A stretch of DNA of 50,060 bases from Chrysochromulina tobinii (taxonomy: Eukaryota). The DNA lies in NCBI GenBank assembly GCA_001275005.1, contig JWZX01003125.1, forward strand, positions 1-50,060. Direction: 5' to 3'. The translations under genes were made by a program, and so were the position numbers. Positions within the stretch are counted from its first letter, which is position 1. Each line of letters starts with the position of its first letter. Below the pieces are notes generated by a model. It searched no databases. It was not told the DNA's origin and saw only the letters and a list, made by a program, of their open reading frames with translations. Positions 1 through 50,060 of this stretch are shown in pieces.

Positions 1-1312
1 TAACCTCAATAGGGGTCGCGTCCGCGCCGCTGCTCAGCGCGAAGACCTTGGGCTGCAGCTTATCGAGGTGCACCCGTAGCGCGGGGTACGCCGTCAACCT
101 CTTGATCAGCTCCCTGCTCAACGAGTCCTCGCAGCAGCACCTGCGTGTGTGGGACAGTGTGGGGCAGTCGCGTGCGAGGGGGATCACGTCTCGGTGGTGC
201 CAAAATAGGAGTGTGGGCAGCGCTCACCATCCGCGAGAAAAGTACGGCGTCTCGTTGTAAAGCGTGTCGAGCCCCGCGCAGAGGCCGGGCGGTGCACCCG
301 CGTCCTTGGCCGCGACGGCAGACTCGTGCAAGGCGAAGCGCACGCGCACGATGGCGGGGCTGCGGCTGAGGTCGCAGCTCTCAATGGTTCCGAACCGGAT
401 GAGCGCTGCGCGTACCACGCTCTCGTCTGCGTTTGATTTCAGCTCGAACAAGCAGACAACCCCATCAAAATCGGCTGGCCGGGGTGGGATCTCCTCAATC
501 TGGAGCACGGTCGTTGCAAGGATCGACGCGTAAAGCTGATTCATCGCTCCTCCCTTGAGTGCGATCTCAAAGAACTCCTTCTGCTCCGCTGTCCTTGGGG
601 CCTGATACAAGGATCCAAAGTCCCAGAACAAGGCTTCAATTGCCAGCCTTGCCAGAGCGCGTCGAAGCACGCGGATGCGCGACCCGGCCGGATCTGGATC
701 GCCTGACATGAGCCAGCCATAGGTAAGCGCGCCGATGCTCCGGTCTCCACGGCGAACGAGCGCTGCGGCCGCTTCACGGCTCAGCAGCGGCGAAGGCGAG
801 GCCCCGCTCTTTTCCAATGCCTCGAGCTCCTGGCGGTTGGGCATCTTGAAATTATCCGGCTGCTTCAGCAGCCACTTGACGCAAAGCAACCGAATCGCTC
901 CACGCATGAGGACTTGTATGACGATCTGGTCGAGCTCTGCGAGCGCCCGATGCAGCTTTGGCGGCAGCGGTGTACAGACTTGCGGAGAAATCTGCTCGGA
1001 CTGTGCGTCCATGGCCTCGGTGGACCGCACAGCGTCGTCGTCGTCGTCGTTGATGTCGTCGAGGTTGGTGTCGTCCCCGTCCTCCAAGGCTCCCTCTGAG
1101 ACAGCGTCCAACGCAGGCTTCCCCTTTTTCTTGACGTTGACGCGGCTGGATTTCTCCTTCTTGCTCGGACTGTTGCCGTGATGGCTCGGGGTGGTGCCGC
1201 GATGGCTCGGGGTCCCGCCGCGATGGCTCGGGGTCTCGCGGCGGTGCGAGCTACTGCCTAATGCTGGCAGTTTGCCCTTGTCCTTCTTGCCCGTGTCCTT
1301 CTTTGGAGCCAT
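1..1312 (-). CDS. HET/TIR-like domain protein with an inserted RRM-like segment; 3' end runs off the window; intron 141-227
   Basis: ORF 224..1540, likely start MAPKKD at 1312. Motifs LTYGW..DPDP.G, LFWDFGSLYQ, MNQLY and Y.SRGW. Removing GTGAGC...ACGCAG (227-141) restores RGW-CCCE and an open frame to base 1. Confidence 0.6.
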
Positions 1313-12158: not shown

Positions 12159-14841
12159 ATGAACTTCGTCCACGGCGCGTCGTCGGACACGGCCGAGAAG
12201 GGCGAGCGGTACGGCTGGTCGAGGCCCGTGCCGGCTGCTCGTAGAGGCCGCAAACGGCCGCATGACGACGAGAGCGATGAGGATGCCTACTTTGACAAGG
12301 ACGAGGAGCCACAGCATTCCAGAGCGGCAGCACCAACGCCCGAAGAGGACCCTCTGGATGCCTTCATGGCCGAGCTACACGGGCGCAACGCGCGCACTGC
12401 TCCGCAAACTGACGACCCTGCTGCGCCTGCTGCCACTCGCCCTGCCACGGCTGGCGCCGTAAAGCCGTGGGATGCAGCTCCACCTCCTCCCCCAACGGCG
12501 GATGACTTGGAAGAGGACCCTCTGGACGCGTTCATGGCCGGTCTCGCATCGGCGCCCTCACAGCCCAAGGGCAGGGAGCGCGCCGTCCAGCAGTGCGACG
12601 AAGAGGAGGATCCGGTCGCGTCGTACCTCGAAGAGAGCGGGCTGCGCGCGGCGGAGGCCGAGGCCGAGGCCGAGGCCGAGGTTGACGGTGGCAGCGTACG
12701 CCGGCAGCTCAAGGGCCAAAAGGGTGGCGGGAGCTCCATCGGCGCGGAGCTGCTTCCGGTGGACCACGCGGCCATTGAGTACGATGCATTTGAGCGCGAG
12801 CTCTACGCTCCACACCCGACGATCCGTGAGCTGAGCGCCGAGCAGGTGCGCGAGCGGCGAGCTGTGCTACGGCTGAGCGTGAGCGGCTTCGACGTGCCCT
12901 CGCCCATCGCGCGCTTCGAGCACGCAGGCCTGCCACGCGAGCTGCTCGCGACGGTGCGTAAGCTCGGTTACGAGGAGCCCACATCCGTGCAGATGCAGGC
13001 GCTGCCGGTGGCCATGTCGGGCCGTGACCTGATCGGCGTGGCTGCGACTGGCTCGGGCAAGACGGTGGCGTATCTGCTGCCTCTCGGATGCCACGTGATG
13101 GCACAGCGCCGTCTCGAGCACGGCGAGGGCCCGATCGGCCTCGTGCTCGCGCCCACGCACGAGCTCGCCGAACAGATTGCCCTCGAGTGCCGCAAGCTGC
13201 TGGGTCGCTCCCTCGGCCTCAATTGTGCGTCACTCATCGGGGGCGTCGGCAAGTACGAGCAGCTCAAGGCCCTCCGGGCGGGCTGCGAGGTCGCGGTGGG
13301 CACGCCCGGCCGCCTCGTCGAGCTCCTCGCGATGAAGAACGGCCTGTGTGCGCGCCGTGTGACCTTCGTGGTCCTCGACGAGGCCGACCGCATGTTCTCG
13401 CTCGGTTTCGAGCCGCAGGTGTGAACACGGCTGTGAGCACGGCGGGGCCGAGGTTCAGCAGACACTCTGAGCCCATCAGATGGCCTCCCGATGGCCTCCC
13501 GATGGCCTCCCGATGGCCCCCGATGGCCTCCCGATGCCCCCCCGATGGCCCCCCGATGGCCCCCCGAGCTGCTCCCGAGCTGATCACATTCGGTGGCCCT
13601 CGCCCGATCGCTTGCAGGTGCGCGCGATCTTGCAGCAGGTGCGCCCGGACCGCCAGGCCCTCCTCTTCTCCGCCACCTTCCCGCCGGCGCTCGAGCGGCT
13701 CGCGCGCGATAGCCTCTCGGAGCCCATCCGGCTGGCTATCGGCACGGCGGGCGACGCGAACGAGGACGTGACACAGCTCGTCGAGGTGCTGCCGACCGAG
13801 GAGCTCAAGTGGCCGTGGCTTGCCGCGCGCCTCGAGCACTTTCTGCAGCAGGGCACTGTCCTCGTCTTCGTCTCGACACGGCTTCAGGCGGATGGACTGG
13901 CGGCACAGCTGCAGGCGCACATGGGACGCGCCGTCGTGGCGATCCACGGAGAGAAGAGCCAAGCCGAGCGCCAGGAGACCCTGTATGACTTCAAGCGCGG
14001 CAAGATGCCGCTGCTCGTGGCGACGGACGTGGCGTCACGCGGCCTCGACATCCCCACTATCAAGACTGTCATCAACTTTGACGTGGCCAAGCGCCTCGAT
14101 GACCACACGCACCGCATTGGACGTACGGGCCGCGCCGGCGCCACTGACGGAACCGCGTACACGCTGCTGACGGCGGGTGAGATGGATGCTGCCGTGGACA
14201 TGGTGCGCAGCCTGCGGACGGCGCGGCAGGTGCCCTCAGAAGAGCTCCTTCAACTGGCCCGGCGCTCGCGCAGGTGGGCCGCCTCTGGCCTCGATGACAG
14301 CTCTATTGGCGGCGGGAGCGGCGGAGGAGACGGCGTTGACAGAGGCTGCGGGAGCGGCGGCGCCGGCGAGGCTGGCCGTGGTTTGCGCCATCAGTTTGCG
14401 CCACCATCGCAGCATCGCGTCGCCTTGCTCGAGCACTCCACATCAGATCCTGTAGCGCGTGCACAAGCTTTCGCCGCGAGACTCAGTTCGCAGTTGGGCA
14501 CTGCCGCCGGTGCCAACGGCTACTCCTCTCACCAGTTTGCACCGCCGCCGTCGCATTTCCTGCCGCCGCCACGACCACCACCGCCGCAGCCACCGCCACC
14601 ACCACCGCCACCACCACCGCCACGGCTGGCAACCTCAGCAGCAGCGTGCGGCGGTGAAGTACCCCCTGGCATCCCCCCCGCCCTCCCGACGTGCCAGGCT
14701 GCTGCAGTTGCCGCAGCGCGTGCAGCAGCTGAAGCGATCGCCTCCCGGCTATCGGCCTCGGCTGCAAACGGTGGCGCCGCTCCGCCGCCCCCAGCACCCC
14801 CCGACAGTGGCGGCGGCGCACGTTCGAGCCGTTGGAGTTGA
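12159..14841 (+). CDS. DDX42: DEAD-box RNA helicase DDX42 (SF3b125)-like, two exons (12159-13418, 13618-14841)
   Basis: EEDPLDAFMA repeats, VDHAAIEY..FER, ATGSGKT, DEADRMFSLGFEPQ|VRAILQQVRPDRQALLFSATF, ANEDVTQ, KWPWL, HTHRIGRTGRAG. Confidence 0.88.
13419..13617 (+). other. GT-AG intron of DDX42 containing an array of GATGGCCTCCC-type repeats
   Basis: Removal joins FEPQ to VRAIL in frame; GCAGGTG occurs at both junctions. Confidence 0.85.
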
Positions 14842-43341: not shown

Positions 43342-46300
43342 TCAGGAGATGACAATCTCGAAGAGCTGCGCGTCCTGAATCGACCACGCGCTCGCATCGA
43401 GCTCCGTGAGCCCCGCCCCCTTCTCCGCAGCGCCGTCGCGCCGAGGGCAACGCAGCAGCCGGCCGGTGTGCGCGCGGAAGGAAACGATGTCCCCATGCCG
43501 CAGCAGATGGGGCGGCTTATGGCGCGGCGCCGTCGTGGGCGGCGGCGCGCCCGGCCAGCTACCCGTCGACGGCGCCGTCGTGGGCACCAGTTCGATCCGA
43601 AACGCTTGCCATTCGGCAACCTCCGTCCACCGAGCCTGCACCGCGCTGCCCTCGACGTCCAAGCAGTAACCGTTGCCTCCGCGCAGGCTCACCGTCTCGC
43701 CTGAGAAGAGGGGACCGCCCGCCGTGGTGAGCACTTGCATGCAAGGCAGCTCATCCGTGGCAATCAACGTACCTGAGAAGAGGGGACCGCCCGCCTTCTT
43801 CTCGATGAGCACTGCGCCGTAGTGGCGGTGCGCGGGCGTGAAGTGAGCGGGTAACGGCGCAATCCCCACCTGATGAGGGGAGCAATCATGGGCAATGAGT
43901 GCGGTCATCAGAGGCCATCAAGTGGGCGGGTGACGGCGCATTCCCCACATGGTTGGCAAACAAAAGATAGACGGGAAGCTCAGTCGCGCGCTCGGAACAG
44001 CGCTCGGTGGCGGCGGTCGCCGGGCGGGCGTCTTCGTGCAAGGGCTTGGGACGGTCCGCCTCAAACGCAGCCCACGTGTCCGCTCCTCCAGCGCCGTCCT
44101 GGGCGCCGTCCTGAGCACCGTCCCGAGCGCCTTCCCGAGCACCACTCGCGGGCTTGGGGCTCTCTTCGAAAGATTCGGCGGCGGAGATCACGCCAGATTC
44201 GGCGGCGGAGATCACGCCAGATTCGGCGGCGGAGATCACGCCAGATTCGGCGGCGGAGATCACGCCAGATTCGGCGGCGGAGATCACGCCAGATTCGGCG
44301 GCGGAGATCACGCCAGATTCGGCGGCGGAGATCGGCGAGGCGAAGCCGAAGGCGAACGATTCCGAGGGCGAGCCTGATGAGTGGCGTCATCAGAGGCGAT
44401 CAATGGCGCGTCATCAGAGGCAATCAGTGGCGCGTCATCAGAGGCCATCCACGGCAGCTGCAGGTGGCGGCGCACCCAGTGGTGAAGCGAAGGTCGCCGC
44501 GAGAGTCGCATTCACGATCGTCCCTTGCTTGAACGCGGCGCTACCTTTCCTGACGGAGGTCCCAAGGGTGCTCCCGAGGGCAGGGCCGATGGCAGCCGCA
44601 CTCTCAGCCTCGCTCAGCGCGCGTAGCATCACCTGTGCAACGAGTGGCGTCATCAGAGGTCATCAAAGGCCATCAGAGGTCATCAGAGGCCATCCGAGAC
44701 ACATTAGGAGCTGAGTGCCCAAGTGCCATCGGTGGCCATCAGAGGCGATCAGAGGCGATCAGAGGCGATCAGAGGCGATCAGAGGCGATCAAGAGGCGAT
44801 CAAGAGGCGATCAGAGGTCATAAGTGCCAATTGCACCTACGTGCCCGAATGGAGCGTGGGACGTCATCAGCAGTCATCATTATTCAACAGCAATCATCAG
44901 CCGTCATCAGCCGTCATCAGCCGTCATCAGCCGTCATCATGACGCACCTTAGTGCCCGAATGGAGCGTGGGACGAACGCGTGGCGCTCCTGCCAACGCCT
45001 GCAGAGACTCGGGGCAGTGGTCCGTGCCGGCCTCGAGCGCCGACAGCCTGATCCGAAACAGAGGAGCGCTGATGAGGGAGGCAATCAAGGACCATCAGAG
45101 GCCATCCGAGGCAATCAGACCTGATCCGAAAATAGGAGCGCTGATGAGGCGAGATGAAGTACGGCTCACAGACCGTCTTGAGCGCCGTCCACGAGTCATG
45201 ACCACCCACGCCCATATGGAGAGCATCGAGGTGGACGTAGATCGAGGGCTCACGCCACTCGCGGAGTCGGTCGGTCGGCGGCGGCTGAGGGCGCGGCGGC
45301 GGCGGCGGCGGCACTGGCGCGCCGTGCTGGCGCGAGATCGTGAGCTCGTCCAGCGAGATGTTGTGTACCGTCATCAAGCTGGGCGGCAGCTCGGGCTGGC
45401 GGAGCGCCGTGCTGGGCAGTACCATGTCGGGCCACAGCACCGTGTTGGGCGGTGCCATGTCGGGGCGCAGCTCGCGCTCGTGTTTCGCCTCGGTGAGCGC
45501 CCCGACCGAGTAGGCGGACACGCTCACCTGGAGAGGGGGCGTGAGTGGCCCCGTGGCCAGCAGCAGCCCGCCGCCGCCGCCCCTGCCCTCGCCGCCGCCC
45601 TCGCCCTCGCCCTCCTCCTCACCGGGCGCCGTATTGGGCGCGCGCACCGCCAGCCAGCGCACGCCGCCCCGCCCGCCGTTCTCACTGGGCACCACGTAGG
45701 CAGTGTGCATGCCCTCGAGGGGTAGCGTGTGCACGCCGAGCCACGCCGAGGCCATCCGATCGGGGTAATTCTCGTGAGGGCCCAGCCCATACCTAATGAG
45801 GGAGGCACTCAGATGCAATCATACATGCGATTCCGATCGGGGTCATTCTCGTGAGGGCCCAGCCCATACCTAATGAGGGAGGCACTCAGATGCAATCATA
45901 CATGCAATTCCGATCGGGGTCATTCTCGTGGGGGCCCAGCCCGTACCATGTGACGAGTGTCGAAGTGCCGCCGTCGATGCCGCCGCCGGTGCCGCCGCCG
46001 GTGCCACTGCCGGTGCCAGTGCTGGTGCTGGTGCCAGTGCTGATGCCGGTGGCTCCGGTCGGTCGAGGAAGTTCGAGGATGACTCCAACGCGAGGTATGC
46101 TCGCAGGGCTCTCAGACGAAGGGTCGCCATTCGCCGCCGGCAGGCGCACCTGCAGCCGTCATCAGCCGTCATCAGTCGTCATCAGTCGTCATCAGCCGTC
46201 ATCAGCCGTCATCAGCCGTCATCAGCCGTCATCAGCCGTCATCAGCCGTCATCAGCCGTCATCAGTGACCATCGGCGCACCTGCAGCTGCAGATGACAGC

Positions 46301-49300
46301 AGACCTCGATGCTCGCGTCCCCCGCGATGAGATACACGAACGTCGCCGTACCAAGGCGCTGCCCCTTGTCGCCGAGCAGCCCCCAGTCGACGAGGACCGA
46401 CACGAGGGAGCGGCACGGCTGCCACGCACGCAGCCCCTCGAGGGTGCGGCTCATGTTGTGAAGCCCCGCCGCTCGCCATTGGTCGGCGTAACGGCCGAGT
46501 TCGTCATTGTCCGTTGGCGCGCGCCAGAGCGACGGGATCGGCCCCACCTGATGAAGGACGCAATCAGAGGTCATCAGTGGTTATCAGTGGTCCTCAGTGG
46601 TCCCAAAACGGTCATCAGAGGTCATCAGAGGTCATCAGCGGTCATCAGTGGTCATCAGAGGTCATCAGAGGTCCCAAAGCGAAGGGATCGGCCCCACCTT
46701 GGCCTTGAGCCTGCCGTCCACCACGTAGTTACGAAGCACGCCGTCTGCATCCACAGAGACGTCGAAGTGCTCTCCCGAGACGCTCCATCCGCCATGGCCG
46801 TCTGCAGCGAGCGTGAGCGGCGCCAGCGCATCGAGCTCGAGAAAGGGCGACGCGCCACTCTTCGTCAGCGCACCAGCACCGCCGCCGCCGCCGCTGCCCG
46901 CGAGGACGCACGGCGCACAGGGCGGCGGCGTGACCTCCCATGTGAAACGACCGACGGTTTCACCTCGGGCGGCCCACGCGTGCTCATCGCGCCAGATCGT
47001 GACGAGATCGATGGCCAGGGTGCCGCCAATCGGCGCCGCAAACGCCGCCGAGAGCGCCGCATGCCATGGAAGCGACGTCGCCGCAATCGACCACGTGGCA
47101 CCGGGCGGCAGGGCAGGGGTGCTCGCAAAGGCACCGTCGGCCATCGGGAGCCCGTCGCGGCGCAGCTGCCAGCGGAGCGCCGTGGTGAGCACTTGCATGC
47201 AAGGCAGGTCATCGGTGGCAATCAGCGCAGCTGCCAGCGAAGCGCCGTGGTGAGCACTTGCATGCAAGGCAGGTCCTCGGCGGCAATCAACGTACCTGCC
47301 AGCGGAGCGCGTACAGTTCGTCGAAGCGCCCGAAATCGAGCATCGAGCGCAGCGTGAGCAGCCGGCCTGTGGGCGCGAGGGTGGCGTACAATGGCTGCTG
47401 CAGATGGCGCACCTGATGGGGGAGGCAATCATGGCCCGTGGGCGCGAGGGTGGCGTACAATGGCTGCTGCAGATGGCGCACCTGATGAGGGAGGCAATCA
47501 TGGACCCTCAGAGGTCATCAGCAGCGTGAGGATGGCGCTACAGGGGCTGCTGCAGACGGCGCACCTCCTCTAGCGCAGGGTGTGGCGTCCGGTCGGGGAA
47601 CGTGAGGCCATTGATGCAGAACTGGCGATCGTGCTGGTAGGAATGGGGCCCGAAGTCGCCGCCGTACGCCCAGCGCATCGTGCCATCGGAGAGCCGTTGG
47701 AGCAGCCCCTGGTCGCACCTGATGAGGGAGGCAATCATGGATCATCCATGGCCATGAGCAGCAGCAGCAGAGAAGCCGATGGAGCAGGCCCTAATCGCAC
47801 CAGCCCCAGATGACCCCTGATGAAGGAGGCCATCATGTATCATCAGTGGTCATCAGTGGGCGCACCAGTCCCAGATGAAGCCGCCTTGCACGTGCGCATG
47901 CTCCCGGAAGAGCGCCCAATAGTCCGCAAGCCCGCCGTTCGAATTGCCCATGGCATGCGAGTACTCGCACAGGAGCAGCGGCCGGTCGTCATTCCCCACA
48001 GCGTCGACCAAATGGGCGCAGTGCTCGGGGCGCGCGTACATGGGCGAGATCACCTGGGAGATACATGGGAGATACATGGGAGATACATGAGCGATACATG
48101 GGCGAGATCACCTGGGAGTCACTCAGCGGCACTCAGCGGCACTCAGCGTCACTCAGCGGGGTTCAGAAGAGAGACTAGGGCGACCAGAGGGGCCTTAGAA
48201 GAGAGATTAGGGCCATCCGAGGGCATCGGAGGGCGATGCCGAGGCGATCCGAGGGCATCAGAGGGCGATGCCGAGGCCATCCGAGGGCCATCACCTCGGA
48301 GGCGCCGTTGTGGCAGTTGCCCAGCCCTTCGTAGTGAGAGGGACGCGTCGGGTCGCGCGCGTTGATCCACTGCCGCATGAGCAGATGGGTGGGTCCAACG
48401 CCACTCTCATTCCCCAGAGACCACATGAAGATGCATGCGTGGTTCTTCTGCGACTCGACCATACGTGTGACGCGAGCTAGCAGGGCACGCCGCCACTCGG
48501 GCGACGCGTTCAGATGGAGCTTGTTCGAGGGGGCGGGCAGGGAGACGAGGCCGTGCGTCTCGATGTTGGCCTCGTCCATGACGTACAGACCCACCTCATC
48601 ACAGATCTCGTACCTGATGAGGGGCGCAATCAAAGGTATTGAGGGACGCAAACAAAGGTAATGAGGGACGCAATCAAAGCTGGGCGCGCGGCCGCACCTG
48701 ATGAGGGACGCAATCAAAGCTGATGAGGGACGCAATCAAAGCTGATGATGAGGGGTGCACTCAGGGGACGCACTCAGAGGGCGCAGCTCAGGGGCACTCC
48801 GAGCCAGATCGCGAGCTCGTCGCAGATCGCGAGCTCGACGCAGATCGCGAGCTCGTCGCGGAGGTCGCGTACCAGCGCGTCGCGTTTGGATAGTGCGAGC
48901 AGCGCCTCGCGTGATGAGGGAGGCAATCGAGGGTGGCAATCACGTACCAGCGCGTCGCGTTTGGATAGTGCGAGCAGCGCGTCGCGTTGAAGTTGTACTT
49001 CTTCATCATCAGCGCGTCCGTCCACATGGACGCATCGCTCACGTACCTGATGAGGGGGGCACTCAGGTGCAATCATGCATGCAATCAGATGCCATTCGAG
49101 GCACTCTGTATAGCACGACCCCGCTCACGCACTTGCCCGTGTGCTCATCGTGCTCGTGCCGGTTGACGCCCTTGAAGATGACCGGCACGCCGTTGATCAG
49201 CAACTTCTTGCCTTGCACGCAGCATGTGCGCGCACCCAGCCGCTGCCATTCCCACTCGAGCACCCCACCAGGCTCCTCGCCCGCGTACCTGTGATGAGGG

Positions 49301-50060
49301 AGGCAATCCGAGGCACTCAGAAGCACTCAGAAGCACTCCGAGGCACTCAGAAGCCCTCAGAAGCAATCCGAGGCACTTCCACACGAACATCCCCACAGGC
49401 CCTCGCGCGCGCGCACCGCTCAACCGCGGCCATCAGCGGCCATCAGCGGCCATCAGCGGTCATCAGTGGCCATCAGTGGCCATCAGCGGCCATCAGTGGC
49501 CATCCGCGGCCATCAGTGGTCATCAGTGGTCATCAGAGGTCATCAGTGGTCATCGGTGGTCATCAGTGCGCGCGCACCGCTCATCCGCGGCCAGCATCGC
49601 GCCCGTGACGACGCCATCGGGCGCCTCGGCTGCGGCGTCGCTCACGTCAAGCAGAGCGAGGCTGAGAGTGTACCTGATGAGGGAGACCATCAGGCGTCAT
49701 CAGGCGTCATCCAGGCGTCATCCAGGCGTCATCAGAGGTCATCAGAGGTCATCAGAGGTCATCAGAGGTCATCAGAGGTCATCAGAGGTCATCAGAGGCC
49801 TTCCGAGGCGATCCGAGGGGTCATAAGGGCCATCCGAGGCGATCCATCCGTCCACAGAGGCCATCCGACGTACAGGTAGGGCGACTCGGCCGACCAGAGC
49901 TGCGGACTTTCGAGCGCCGTCTCGATTTCCAGGGGCAGCACATCCGCGCGTGCCGCCGTCGTCTCCTCCTGGCCCACCCATACGCGCGGCGCGCGGGCCC
50001 AGTTTGGAAAGAGGCCGCCGCCGCCGCCGCCGCCCCCGCCGCCGCTGCCGCCACCGACGC
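43342..50060 (-). CDS. lacZ: GH2 beta-galactosidase (LacZ-like) with a C-terminal fascin/beta-trefoil-like domain; 5' end outside the window; 16 predicted introns
   Basis: The spliced frame gives [154 protein letters not shown] and [15 protein letters not shown]. Confidence 0.92.
43701..43772 (-). other. Intron 16: 49-nt donor cassette and a perfect duplicate of the upstream exon end
   Basis: 24-bp direct repeat at 43700-43723 and 43772-43795. The 72-nt length is in frame, so retention would also read through. Confidence 0.75.
43870..43948 (-). other. Intron 15: 29-nt exon duplicate and acceptor cassette
   Basis: Intron start GTGGGGAATGCGCCGTCACCCGCCCACTT vs exon start GTGGGGATTGCGCCGTTACCCGCTCACTT (26/29); ends ATGATTGCTCCCCTCATCAG. 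Confidence 0.85.
44171..44333 (-). repeat. Perfect 24-bp tandem repeat (six full units and one partial) encoding (ISAAESGV)n
   Basis: AGATTCGGCGGCGGAGATCACGCC repeated head to tail on the plus strand, with no spacers. Confidence 0.92.
44374..44475 (-). other. Intron 14 (donor position least certain)
   Basis: G|GTGCGC...GACGCCACTCATCAG|GC keeps the frame into the ISAAESGV repeat exon. Confidence 0.5.
44633..44947 (-). other. Intron 13: two repeat arrays and a copy of the upstream exon end
   Basis: AAG|GTGCGT...TTGCACAG|GTG; duplicate GTCCCACGCTCCATTCGGGCAC at about 44841-44862. Confidence 0.65.
45048..45120 (-). other. Intron 12: ends in a ~30-nt duplicate of the upstream exon end
   Basis: ATCAG|GTCTGATTGCC...CCTCATCAGCGCTCCTCTGTTTCGGATCAG|GCTG restores FRIRLSAL. 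Confidence 0.75.
45793..45946 (-). other. Intron 11: two 77-nt units, each a 38-nt exon duplicate plus a 39-nt acceptor cassette
   Basis: Restores [15 protein letters not shown]. Confidence 0.88.
46150..46280 (-). other. Intron 10: (TGATGACGGC)n body flanked by a 14-nt junction repeat
   Basis: GCTGCAG|GTGCGCC at both ends; restores LQLQVRLP. Confidence 0.85.
46548..46697 (-). other. Intron 9: 24-nt exon duplicate, repeat array and acceptor cassette
   Basis: Intron start GTGGGGCCGATCCCTTCGCTTTGG vs exon start GTGGGGCCGATCCCGTCGCTCTGG; restores [16 protein letters not shown]. Confidence 0.88.
47166..47295 (-). other. Intron 8: donor cassette (two units) and a duplicate of the upstream exon end
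   Basis: CAG|GTACGTTGATTGCC...GTGCTCACCAC-GGCGCTCCGCTGGCAG|CTG restores ALRWQLRR. Confidence 0.82.
47413..47564 (-). other. Intron 7: ~40-nt exon duplicate and two tandem acceptor cassettes 69 bp apart
   Basis: GAG|GTGCGCCGTCTGCAGCAGCC...CATCAG|GTGCGCCATCTGCAGCAGCC restores EEVRHLQQP. Confidence 0.8.
47719..47865 (-). other. Intron 6: acceptor cassettes and a degenerate copy of the uninterrupted junction
   Basis: TG|GTGCG...ATGATTGCCTCCCTCATCAG|GTGCG restores WDWCDQG. Confidence 0.88.
48054..48294 (-). other. Intron 5: repeat-rich, with a duplicated acceptor junction
   Basis: GAG|GTGAT...CTCCCAG|GTGATCTCGCCCATGTA restores ASEVISPMY; a second CTCCCAGGTGATCTCGCCCATGTA lies at about 48096-48119. 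Confidence 0.8.
48614..48947 (-). other. Intron 4: stacked acceptor cassettes and a copy of the upstream exon end
   Basis: TG|GTACG...TGATTGCGCCCCTCATCAG|GTACG restores NATRWYEICDE. Confidence 0.85.
49047..49132 (-). other. Intron 3: acceptor cassette; 11-nt duplicate of the downstream exon start
   Basis: AA|GTGCGTGAGCG...CTGAGTGCCCCCCTCATCAG|GTACGTGAGCG restores HTGKYVSD. Confidence 0.85.
49289..49577 (-). other. Intron 2: acceptor cassette; internal copy of its own donor junction; TGATGGCCRC-type arrays
   Basis: CG|GTGCGCG...GATTGCCTCCCTCATCACAG|GTACGCG restores DERYAGEE. Confidence 0.75.
49674..49873 (-). other. Intron 1 (within window): acceptor cassette; GTAC duplicated at both ends; (TGATGACCTC)n body
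   Basis: CT|GTACGT...TCTCCCTCATCAG|GTAC restores PYLYTL. Confidence 0.85.

What the first reader, a model, noticed from the sequence alone, without database searches (positions are those of the whole stretch)
43701..49873. Candidate intron-generating system: exon duplication plus a portable splice-site cassette
Seen: the beta-galactosidase frame needs 16 GT-AG excisions, and nearly every intron duplicates the neighbouring exon at or near a junction (about 4, 5, 11, 14, 15, 24, 24, 29, 30, 38 and 40 nt). The rest of each intron is built from a small shared vocabulary (TGATTGCC, CCTCATCAG, CATGCA, TGATGACCTC). One splice site comes from the duplicated host sequence and the other from the inserted cassette, so splicing restores the original mRNA exactly. 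Known: introner elements (e.g. in Micromonas and Aureococcus) are mostly non-autonomous DNA transposons with short fixed target-site duplications, often with TIRs. Inference: long, highly variable duplications with no evident TIRs and repeat-polymer bodies point to a different route, such as target-primed reverse transcription or templated repair of staggered breaks. I cannot tell whether this family has already been catalogued.
Basis: partly seen in the sequence, partly recalled or inferred. Interest (0 to 1): 0.92.

Follow-up and report, generated by a model that had tools for sequence, protein, structure and literature searches.

The report
Exon-duplicating cassettes that build introns
In one gene of the alga Chrysochromulina tobinii, most of 16 introns are a copy of the gene's own neighbouring sequence plus a short shared repeat cassette and are cut out of the RNA exactly where this could be checked, which likely marks an ongoing, retrotransposon-like way of making new introns that a published survey did not record in this species.

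Summary
The window is Chrysochromulina tobinii. Sixteen GT-AG excisions give an open GH2 beta-galactosidase frame. RNA contigs show six of them spliced; six more fit contig breakpoints. Five more introns lie upstream. Twelve of 16 introns carry host copies of 15-60 nt, beyond every control. In introns 2 and 6 the copy spans the uninterrupted exon joint, a fossil of the intron-less state. Non-host parts come from a shared, sense-only vocabulary: a 10-nt repeat array with a fixed 3' end, and a second cassette of about 50 nt. New here: microhomology sits at the cassette 3' junction only; a related contig differs by whole cassette-plus-duplication units; and the 19 other ORFs and the intergenic DNA in 43 kb lack the cassettes. 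There are no terminal inverted repeats and no fixed duplication length. The best reading is target-primed copying of intron-derived RNA into staggered nicks (about 50%); DNA-templated repair is the main rival. No enzyme was found. The 2025 introner survey lists zero families for this species. Verdict: new variant of a known kind.

The parts
43342..50058 (-). GH2 beta-galactosidase coding region, 3' part (17 exons); 5' part with 5 more introns lies beyond the window end, in L003
49674..49873 (-). Intron 1, 200 nt; 4-nt duplication supplies the donor; 10-nt array and fixed 3' end
   Evidence: no RNA joint among rows shown
49289..49577 (-). Intron 2, 289 nt; holds a 60-nt copy (51 identical) of the uninterrupted joint at 49379-49438; two nested events
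   Evidence: RNA piece breaks at the boundary
49047..49132 (-). Intron 3, 86 nt; 11-nt duplication; carries an extra 76-nt cassette-plus-exon unit in L001
   Evidence: RNA offset fits
48614..48947 (-). Intron 4, 334 nt; several nested units; internal acceptor followed by GT at 48698/48697
   Evidence: RNA offset fits
48868..48942 (-). 75-nt unit in intron 4 (30-nt cassette plus 45-nt host copy, 44 identical), absent in L001
48054..48294 (-). Intron 5, 241 nt; 5-7-nt primary and 24-nt secondary duplication; filler built from local sequence
   Evidence: RNA joint in 4 of 4 runs
47719..47865 (-). Intron 6, 147 nt; holds a 40-nt copy (35 identical) of the uninterrupted joint at 47774-47813
   Evidence: RNA joint in 4 of 4 runs
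47413..47564 (-). Intron 7, 152 nt; two host copies (41 nt with 35 identical; 51 nt with 50 identical); internal acceptor followed by GT at 47482/47481
   Evidence: RNA piece breaks near the boundary
47166..47295 (-). Intron 8, 130 nt; donor from the second cassette family (47246-47295), acceptor from a 15-nt host copy; 4-nt microhomology
   Evidence: frame backed by homologue P0011; no RNA joint among rows shown
46548..46697 (-). Intron 9, 150 nt; 24-nt duplication (22 identical) supplies the donor
   Evidence: RNA contig X15 record 18 joins across it
46150..46280 (-). Intron 10, 131 nt; both splice sites lie inside a 14-nt duplication; body is a 10-nt array
   Evidence: RNA joint in 4 of 4 runs
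45793..45946 (-). Intron 11, 154 nt = two 77-nt units (38-nt host copy plus cassette); internal acceptor followed by GT at 45870/45869
45048..45120 (-). Intron 12, 73 nt; donor from cassette, acceptor from a 29-30-nt host copy
   Evidence: no RNA joint among rows shown
45141..45149 (-). 9 exon bases identical to the cassette's fixed 3' end; the host copy in intron 12 starts exactly here (9-nt microhomology)
44633..44947 (-). Intron 13, 315 nt; 30-nt nested host copy at 44834-44863; two arrays
   Evidence: RNA piece breaks at the boundary
44374..44475 (-). Intron 14, 102 nt; cassette vocabulary but no detectable host copy
   Evidence: RNA piece breaks at the boundary
43870..43948 (-). Intron 15, 79 nt; 29-nt duplication (26 identical) supplies the donor
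   Evidence: RNA piece breaks near the boundary
43701..43772 (-). Intron 16, 72 nt; second-family cassette (43724-43772) plus perfect 23-nt host copy; in frame and stop-free, so splicing is inferred only

Best explanation
These are spliceosomal introns, most built of a copy of the neighbouring exon plus a shared cassette, and they likely arose when a reverse transcriptase copied short intron-derived RNA into staggered nicks in the gene. Shown: the anatomy, splicing at six sites, differences between strains, sense-only orientation and one-sided microhomology. Inferred steps: two nicks 4-50 nt apart open the gene. The 3' end of the template strand primes on a sense RNA, either at that RNA's acceptor end or at an internal microhomology. 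Copying stops at a variable point, and fill-in duplicates the host stretch between the nicks. Insertions survive when the duplication begins with GT or ends in AG, so that splicing restores the message. Repeated hits and slippage between the long direct repeats then add nested units, arrays and whole-intron doublings. The enzyme is unknown and would act in trans.
For: Variable duplications of 4 to about 50 nt. 11 of 20 cassette introns end in the same 10-nt terminus (6 exact, 4 with one change, 1 with a 2-nt insert) while 5' ends vary. Microhomology at cassette-to-host junctions: mean 3.3 nt against 0.47 in controls (10 of 12 junctions testable); at host-to-cassette junctions 0.56 against 0.77 (9 of 14 testable). 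It stays at p = 3.6e-4 on 7 junctions after dropping introns 7 and 11 and the second copy in intron 8. Vocabulary 11-mers: 6 antisense hits in the 21 introns and 1 hit in the other 43.3 kb, against 3.25 in shuffles. Fossil uninterrupted joints in introns 2 and 6. Unit-sized differences from L001. Long variable duplications flank non-LTR insertions in Chlamydomonas (PMC9977147, passages).
Against: No reverse transcriptase or transposase among 22 ORFs scanned, and no genome was available. No poly(A) tail by inspection and no hammerhead ribozyme match. The microhomology test is post hoc, rests on few events and takes the best donor. One-sided microhomology also fits an element antisense to the gene that is 5'-truncated. 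Some filler is clearly local (3' part of intron 5), which is typical of DNA repair. Splicing selection alone explains sense orientation for exonic insertions. Nearby introns are only weakly more alike than distant ones (P 0.025-0.22).
Confidence: 0.5

Rival explanations
1. DNA-templated repair. Staggered breaks are mended by polymerase-theta-like end joining or replication template switching, which duplicates the host stretch and copies filler from existing intron DNA nearby or elsewhere. Splicing selection keeps the spliceable products.
For: Locally built filler and iterated units in introns 4, 5 and U3; exact doubling of intron 11; microhomology. Daphnia neointrons show staggered-then-staggered nesting (PMC4202315 section 19).
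Against: It predicts both orientations and no favoured junction. Antisense copies are at background, and microhomology is on one side only. It does not explain a fixed 3' terminus or the empty intergenic DNA. Daphnia filler is AT-rich and mostly sourceless.
Confidence: 0.28
2. The introns are old; a 10-nt minisatellite and local slippage later colonised them and copied exon ends, so few new introns were made.
For: P0004 and P0006 appear to be interrupted at position 4, and P0002 ends just after position 7. Nested doublings are local.
Against: Introns 2 and 6 hold the uninterrupted joint, and in U2, U5, 7, 9, 11 and 15 the host copy begins at the intron's first base. P0001 and P0003, which end in apparent intron read-through and so look genomic, run unbroken over positions 1, 3, 4 and 5.
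Confidence: 0.08
3. A decayed cut-and-paste DNA-transposon introner (MITE type), later scrambled by slippage.
For: Marine Chrysochromulina MAGs carry introners with 4-bp duplications and no inverted repeats (PMC9860276). Introns 1 and 5 have 4-7-nt duplications.
Against: Duplication length is not fixed. Terminal inverted-repeat scores are no higher than for swapped ends (4.75 against 5.07). A recent unit (44 of 45 identical) already has a 45-nt duplication.
Confidence: 0.06
4. A HUH-endonuclease element such as a non-autonomous Replitron, which inserts in one orientation after RG with variable duplications and fuzzy ends.
For: Replitron-1 shows those signatures, and one Replitron protein was recovered from a single C. 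tobinii locus (PMC10288648). Introns 8, 12 and 16 start after AG.
Against: AG there is forced by splicing. No short direct terminal repeats define the cassettes. Replitron insertions were under-represented in coding sequence and introns (PMC9977147).
Confidence: 0.05
5. Assembly artefact.
For: Repeats cause chimeric joins: L001 switches to another gene inside intron 5, and L081 ends in a cassette.
Against: L003 and L004 match the window over the whole region but for one base and the copy number of a coding repeat, and L002 over its 3850 nt. 11 DNA runs hold 82-87% of the sampled words. Host copies have diverged (44 changes in 554 nt). RNA is spliced at the predicted sites.
Confidence: 0.01

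Closest known systems
Introners (Gozashti et al. 2022, PMC9860276; 2025, PMC12130899), including the marine Chrysochromulina sp. type
   Same: Repeated intron sequence; one splice site carried and one taken from the target duplication; message restored; same genus.
   Different: No end-to-end similar copies; duplications 4 to about 50 nt instead of 4 bp; 10-nt array body; nested re-insertion. The 2025 dataset lists 0 families for C. tobinii GCA_001275005.1.
Non-LTR retroelements with long variable target duplications (Dualen-4b in Chlamydomonas; R9 in rotifers; as described in PMC9977147)
   Same: Variable long duplications flanking the insert; one fixed and one variable end.
   Different: Inserts here are 20-200 nt, non-coding, lack a poly(A) tail, are sense-only and end in splice signals. 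No partner enzyme was identified.
Neointrons from staggered double-strand breaks in Daphnia pulex (PMC4202315)
   Same: Direct repeats, nested secondary events, polymorphism within a species, possible parallel gains.
   Different: Daphnia repeats are 4-17 nt and the filler is AT-rich with almost no source. Here filler is 54-64% GC and drawn from shared cassettes that carry an acceptor or donor.
Intron gain by tandem genomic duplication of a proto-splice site (reviewed in PMC3443670)
   Same: Intron 10 takes both splice sites from a duplicated AG|GT; intron 11 is an exact doubling.
   Different: Nearly all introns here add foreign cassette sequence, and only one site comes from the host copy.
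Dinoflagellate introners of Polarella and Symbiodinium (Roy et al. 2023; seen only through review PMC11282704)
   Same: Diverse ways of recruiting splice sites; many introns per gene.
   Different: Could not be compared in detail: the paper is not held. Some of its 15 families may resemble this one.

Membership tests
Introner (Gozashti definition) | Inserted sequence is spliced out and restores the message | tested here: met
   6 of 16 shown by RNA joints or offsets, 6 more fit contig breakpoints, 4 not seen among rows shown
Introner (Gozashti definition) | Copies highly similar over their whole length at different sites | tested here: not met
   Only cassettes are shared, such as about 50 nt between introns 8 and 16; survey lists 0 families for this species
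Introner (Gozashti definition) | Introns at new positions, absent from orthologues | tested here: inconclusive
   Homologue ORFs run unbroken over positions 1-8, but some may be transcripts; position 4 and perhaps 7 are interrupted in one relative lineage each; 9-16 untested in eukaryotic relatives
MITE-type DNA-transposon introner | Terminal inverted repeats | tested here: not met
   Own ends score 4.75, swapped ends 5.07
MITE-type DNA-transposon introner | Fixed short target duplication | tested here: not met
   4 to about 50 nt
Non-autonomous non-LTR or Penelope-like retroposon | Variable-length target duplication | tested here: met
Non-autonomous non-LTR or Penelope-like retroposon | One fixed end and one variably truncated end | tested here: met
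   11 of 20 share the 3' terminus; 5' ends vary
Non-autonomous non-LTR or Penelope-like retroposon | Poly(A) tail or hammerhead ribozyme | tested here: not met
   No tail by inspection; no hammerhead among 11 weak Rfam matches, all below gathering score
Non-autonomous non-LTR or Penelope-like retroposon | Copies in both orientations and outside genes | tested here: not met
   1 vocabulary hit in 43.3 kb, shuffle mean 3.25; antisense at background; one window only
Non-autonomous non-LTR or Penelope-like retroposon | Autonomous partner with reverse transcriptase sharing an end | not testable with these tools
   No genome held; none among 22 window ORFs
Tandem genomic duplication introns | Both splice sites from one duplicated AG|GT, no foreign filler | tested here: not met
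   Both sites from the duplication only in intron 10, which also has array filler
DSB-repair neointrons (Daphnia type) | Flanking and nested direct repeats | tested here: met
DSB-repair neointrons (Daphnia type) | Filler unrelated between introns | tested here: not met
   19 of 21 introns clearly share sequence in sense, U3 is marginal, U1 does not
Replitron | Insertion after RG with short direct terminal repeats | tested here: inconclusive
   AG precedes introns 8, 12 and 16 but splicing forces it; no terminal direct repeats seen

The most novel reading that the evidence does not exclude
Introns beget introns without a dedicated transposon. Spliced or nascent intron RNA is reverse-transcribed into staggered nicks mostly in the gene that made it, so a gene that gains one cassette intron snowballs (20 in 5.85 kb of coding sequence) while its neighbours stay bare (at most 1 in 32.8 kb). 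The long flanking repeats also allow exact doubling and exact loss.
Probability: 0.2. Interest if true: 0.92.

Novelty: new variant of a known kind. Interest (0 to 1): 0.72.

Why it matters
How new spliceosomal introns arise is a long-standing question, and current surveys find only families of near-identical introns. This system leaves a readable record of each event (duplication, cassette, microhomology, nesting order), differs between strains and sits in a cultured, sequenced alga, so the mechanism can be tested directly. It also shows a class of likely recent gains that similarity-based surveys score as zero, and a strong gene-to-gene clustering that random transposon insertion does not explain.

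Tried and rejected
No whole genome is held, and the records behind L001-L004 are not searchable, so there are no genome-wide counts. Hammerhead or snoRNA reading: 11 Rfam matches, all far below gathering score; the C/D-box hits reflect the array. Conserved RNA structure: z-scores from -1.74 to +1.22 in 8 of 16 introns folded, so none. Terminal inverted repeats: rejected. Cis copying within the gene: weak and inconclusive; introns of other genes share as many 10-mers. Viral carrier: 1 hit at a contig end, probably chimeric, and 0 for the array. Prokaryote genomes: 0 and 3 hits; two look like eukaryotic contigs inside MAGs and one is a chance three-unit repeat. My recollection that Penelope-like elements had been tied to Chrysochromulina introns was not borne out; it stays an unverified memory that lowers my confidence in novelty.
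Full report
Identity. A named record for a window protein is KOO24103.1 of Chrysochromulina tobinii on a 50,060-nt contig, and another window protein clusters with C. parva. No whole genome was available. The finding covers the 3' part of a minus-strand GH2 beta-galactosidase gene: 6 of 9 exon pieces scanned hit PF02836 or PF02929.

Observation. Removing 16 GT-AG introns of 72-334 nt gives 1354 codons with only the final stop. Fifteen are needed for the frame; intron 16 is in frame and stop-free. Junction repeats average 15.2 nt against 4.5 nt in 240 swapped pairs. Twelve of 16 introns contain a host-derived segment that scores above all 240 controls; 1, 3, 10 and 14 do not. Locus L003 extends the gene to 21 introns and 1950 codons. 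U1 is an ordinary-looking intron without the vocabulary.

Splicing. Contigs of 4 RNA runs were laid. Introns 5, 6 and 10 are skipped exactly in 4 of 4 runs. Intron 9 is joined in X15, and introns 3 and 4 together fit an offset of 258 against 258 predicted in X12. Contig pieces stop at or a few bases past the predicted boundaries of introns 2, 7, 11, 13, 14 and 15 and carry on beyond them. Introns 1, 8, 12 and 16 were not among the rows shown; 71 joints and 2845 pieces were not displayed. The three introns whose acceptor comes from the host copy are therefore not confirmed by RNA. Intron 8's frame is backed by homologue P0011.

Not an artefact. L003 and L004 match the window over the whole region except one base and the copy number of a 24-nt coding repeat, and L002 matches over its 3850 nt. 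These may come from the same culture, so they test assembly, not biology. Host copies have diverged at 44 of 554 positions, which an assembler would not produce.

Anatomy. After masking host copies, 19 of 21 introns clearly share sequence with another intron in sense, U3 marginally and U1 not. The non-host parts have a 10-nt period (autocorrelation 0.49, 0.45 and 0.43 at lags 10, 20 and 30). Eleven of 20 end in the same 10-nt terminus. A second cassette of about 50 nt opens introns 8 and 16; its 3' continuation to an acceptor appears in U4, in another gene on L001 and at the end of L081. RNA contigs with loose ends at this cassette (11 in X12) and summed depths in the thousands over the arrays indicate many other copies in the transcriptome. 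In most introns the host copy begins with GT and gives the donor; in 8, 12 and 16 it ends in AG and gives the acceptor; in 10 it gives both. There are no terminal inverted repeats and no conserved fold in the 8 introns folded.

Evidence of gain. Introns 2 and 6 contain copies that span the uninterrupted exon joint (-22 to +37 and -13 to +27). In U2, U5, 7, 9, 11 and 15 the host copy starts at the first intron base. Homologue ORFs run unbroken over positions 1-8. P0001 and P0003 end in what reads as intron read-through near residue 343, so they look genomic, and both cross positions 1, 3, 4 and 5. Against this: P0004 and P0006 appear interrupted at position 4, P0002 ends just past position 7, other hits may be transcripts, and positions 9-16 were not tested in eukaryotic relatives.

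Evidence of ongoing change. L001 is 559 of 565 identical over exons 3-5. It lacks a 75-nt unit in intron 4 (30-nt cassette plus 45-nt host copy, 44 identical), lacks a further 47 nt there, and has an extra 76-nt cassette-plus-exon unit in intron 3. Direction is not polarised, and L001 looks chimeric after base 990, so it is one imperfect witness.

Mechanistic clues. Microhomology lies where the cassette's 3' side meets the host copy: mean 3.3 nt against 0.47 (10 of 12 junctions testable). It is absent on the other side: 0.56 against 0.77 (9 of 14). Dropping introns 7 and 11, where the match is the acceptor itself, and the second copy in intron 8 leaves 7 junctions and p = 3.6e-4. The clearest case is 9 nt in intron 12. 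The test was designed after I noticed that case. Vocabulary 11-mers give 6 antisense hits in the introns and 1 hit in the other 43.3 kb, against 3.25 in shuffles; the 623 sense hits are by construction. Twenty cassette introns fall in 5.85 kb of this gene's coding sequence and at most 1 in 32.8 kb of 19 other ORFs (binomial p = 7e-16). Since most exonic insertions should be unspliceable, a randomly inserting element would be expected to leave many copies in the roughly 10 kb of non-ORF DNA; none were found. Similarity between introns falls only weakly with distance (P 0.025-0.22), so copying in cis is not shown. No reverse transcriptase or transposase is among 22 ORFs scanned.

Interpretation. 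Variable long duplications, one fixed end, one-sided microhomology and sense-only placement fit target-primed copying of intron-derived RNA into staggered nicks (0.5). DNA-templated repair explains the local filler and doublings well and the asymmetries poorly (0.28). Both may act, the first seeding and the second elaborating. It works like an introner but fails the operational test of end-to-end similar copies, and it fails both MITE tests.

Literature. Ten searches found no description of these introns. PMC9860276 (passages and supplement rows; file cut when stored) reports marine Chrysochromulina MAG introners with 4-bp duplications and lists C. tobinii among the genomes surveyed. PMC12130899 (passages, section 6, 12 of 14 supplements searched) gives C. 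tobinii 0 families. PMC4580454 (passages) mentions introns once, about one per gene. PMC8557442 and its preprint (term look-ups) do not mention the genus. Also seen: PMC10288648 (passages, section 9 part 1), PMC9977147 (passages), PMC4202315 (abstract, passages, sections 19, 23, 25), PMC3443670 and PMC11282704 (passages). Roy et al. 2023 was not held. Subscription papers, theses, repeat databases and bioRxiv supplements were not visible, so prior description cannot be excluded.

Verdict. The mechanism is inferred. New variant of a known kind; interest 0.72.

Noticed in passing
window 13419-13617 (+): The only other array-bearing intron seen in the window, in a DEAD-box helicase gene; removal restores the frame. 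It has an 11-nt array, shares only 1 of 145 10-mers with the beta-galactosidase introns and has no long host copy.
   Followed up: partly
window 48698/48697, 48112/48111, 47482/47481, 45870/45869 (-): Internal acceptor directly followed by GT in introns 4, 5, 7 and 11: possible recursive-splicing points with zero-length exons.
   Followed up: no
window 44171-44338: 24-nt coding repeat in exon 15; L003 has 48 nt more and L004 48 nt less than the window, either collapse in assembly or real variation.
   Followed up: no
L001 975-1345: After the start of intron 5 the contig switches to what reads as an ABC-transporter-like gene (my reading, not scanned) with two more cassette introns; probably a chimeric join at the cassette.
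   Followed up: partly
L084 977-1440 and L082 4114-4353: Contigs filed in prokaryote MAGs carry the same array and 3' terminus; they look like eukaryotic contamination and show the family at other loci.
   Followed up: partly
L081 1500-1560: A viral-collection contig ends in the second cassette with an acceptor; likely a chimeric end.
   Followed up: no
P0001 and P0003 C-termini: Both stop aligning near residue 343 in apparent intron read-through at a site where C. tobinii has no intron; P0001's last residues resemble cassette translations, a weak hint of the family in a relative.
   Followed up: partly
window 43342-43700 (-): The last exon encodes a C-terminal domain with no Pfam match at E 0.01.
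   Followed up: no
window introns 1, 2, 9, 10, 13: The 10-nt arrays place stop codons in all three frames, so retained introns would end translation early.
   Followed up: no
window about 141-227 (-): Possible ordinary intron without the vocabulary near the end of ORF 224-1540; boundaries not settled.
   Followed up: partly
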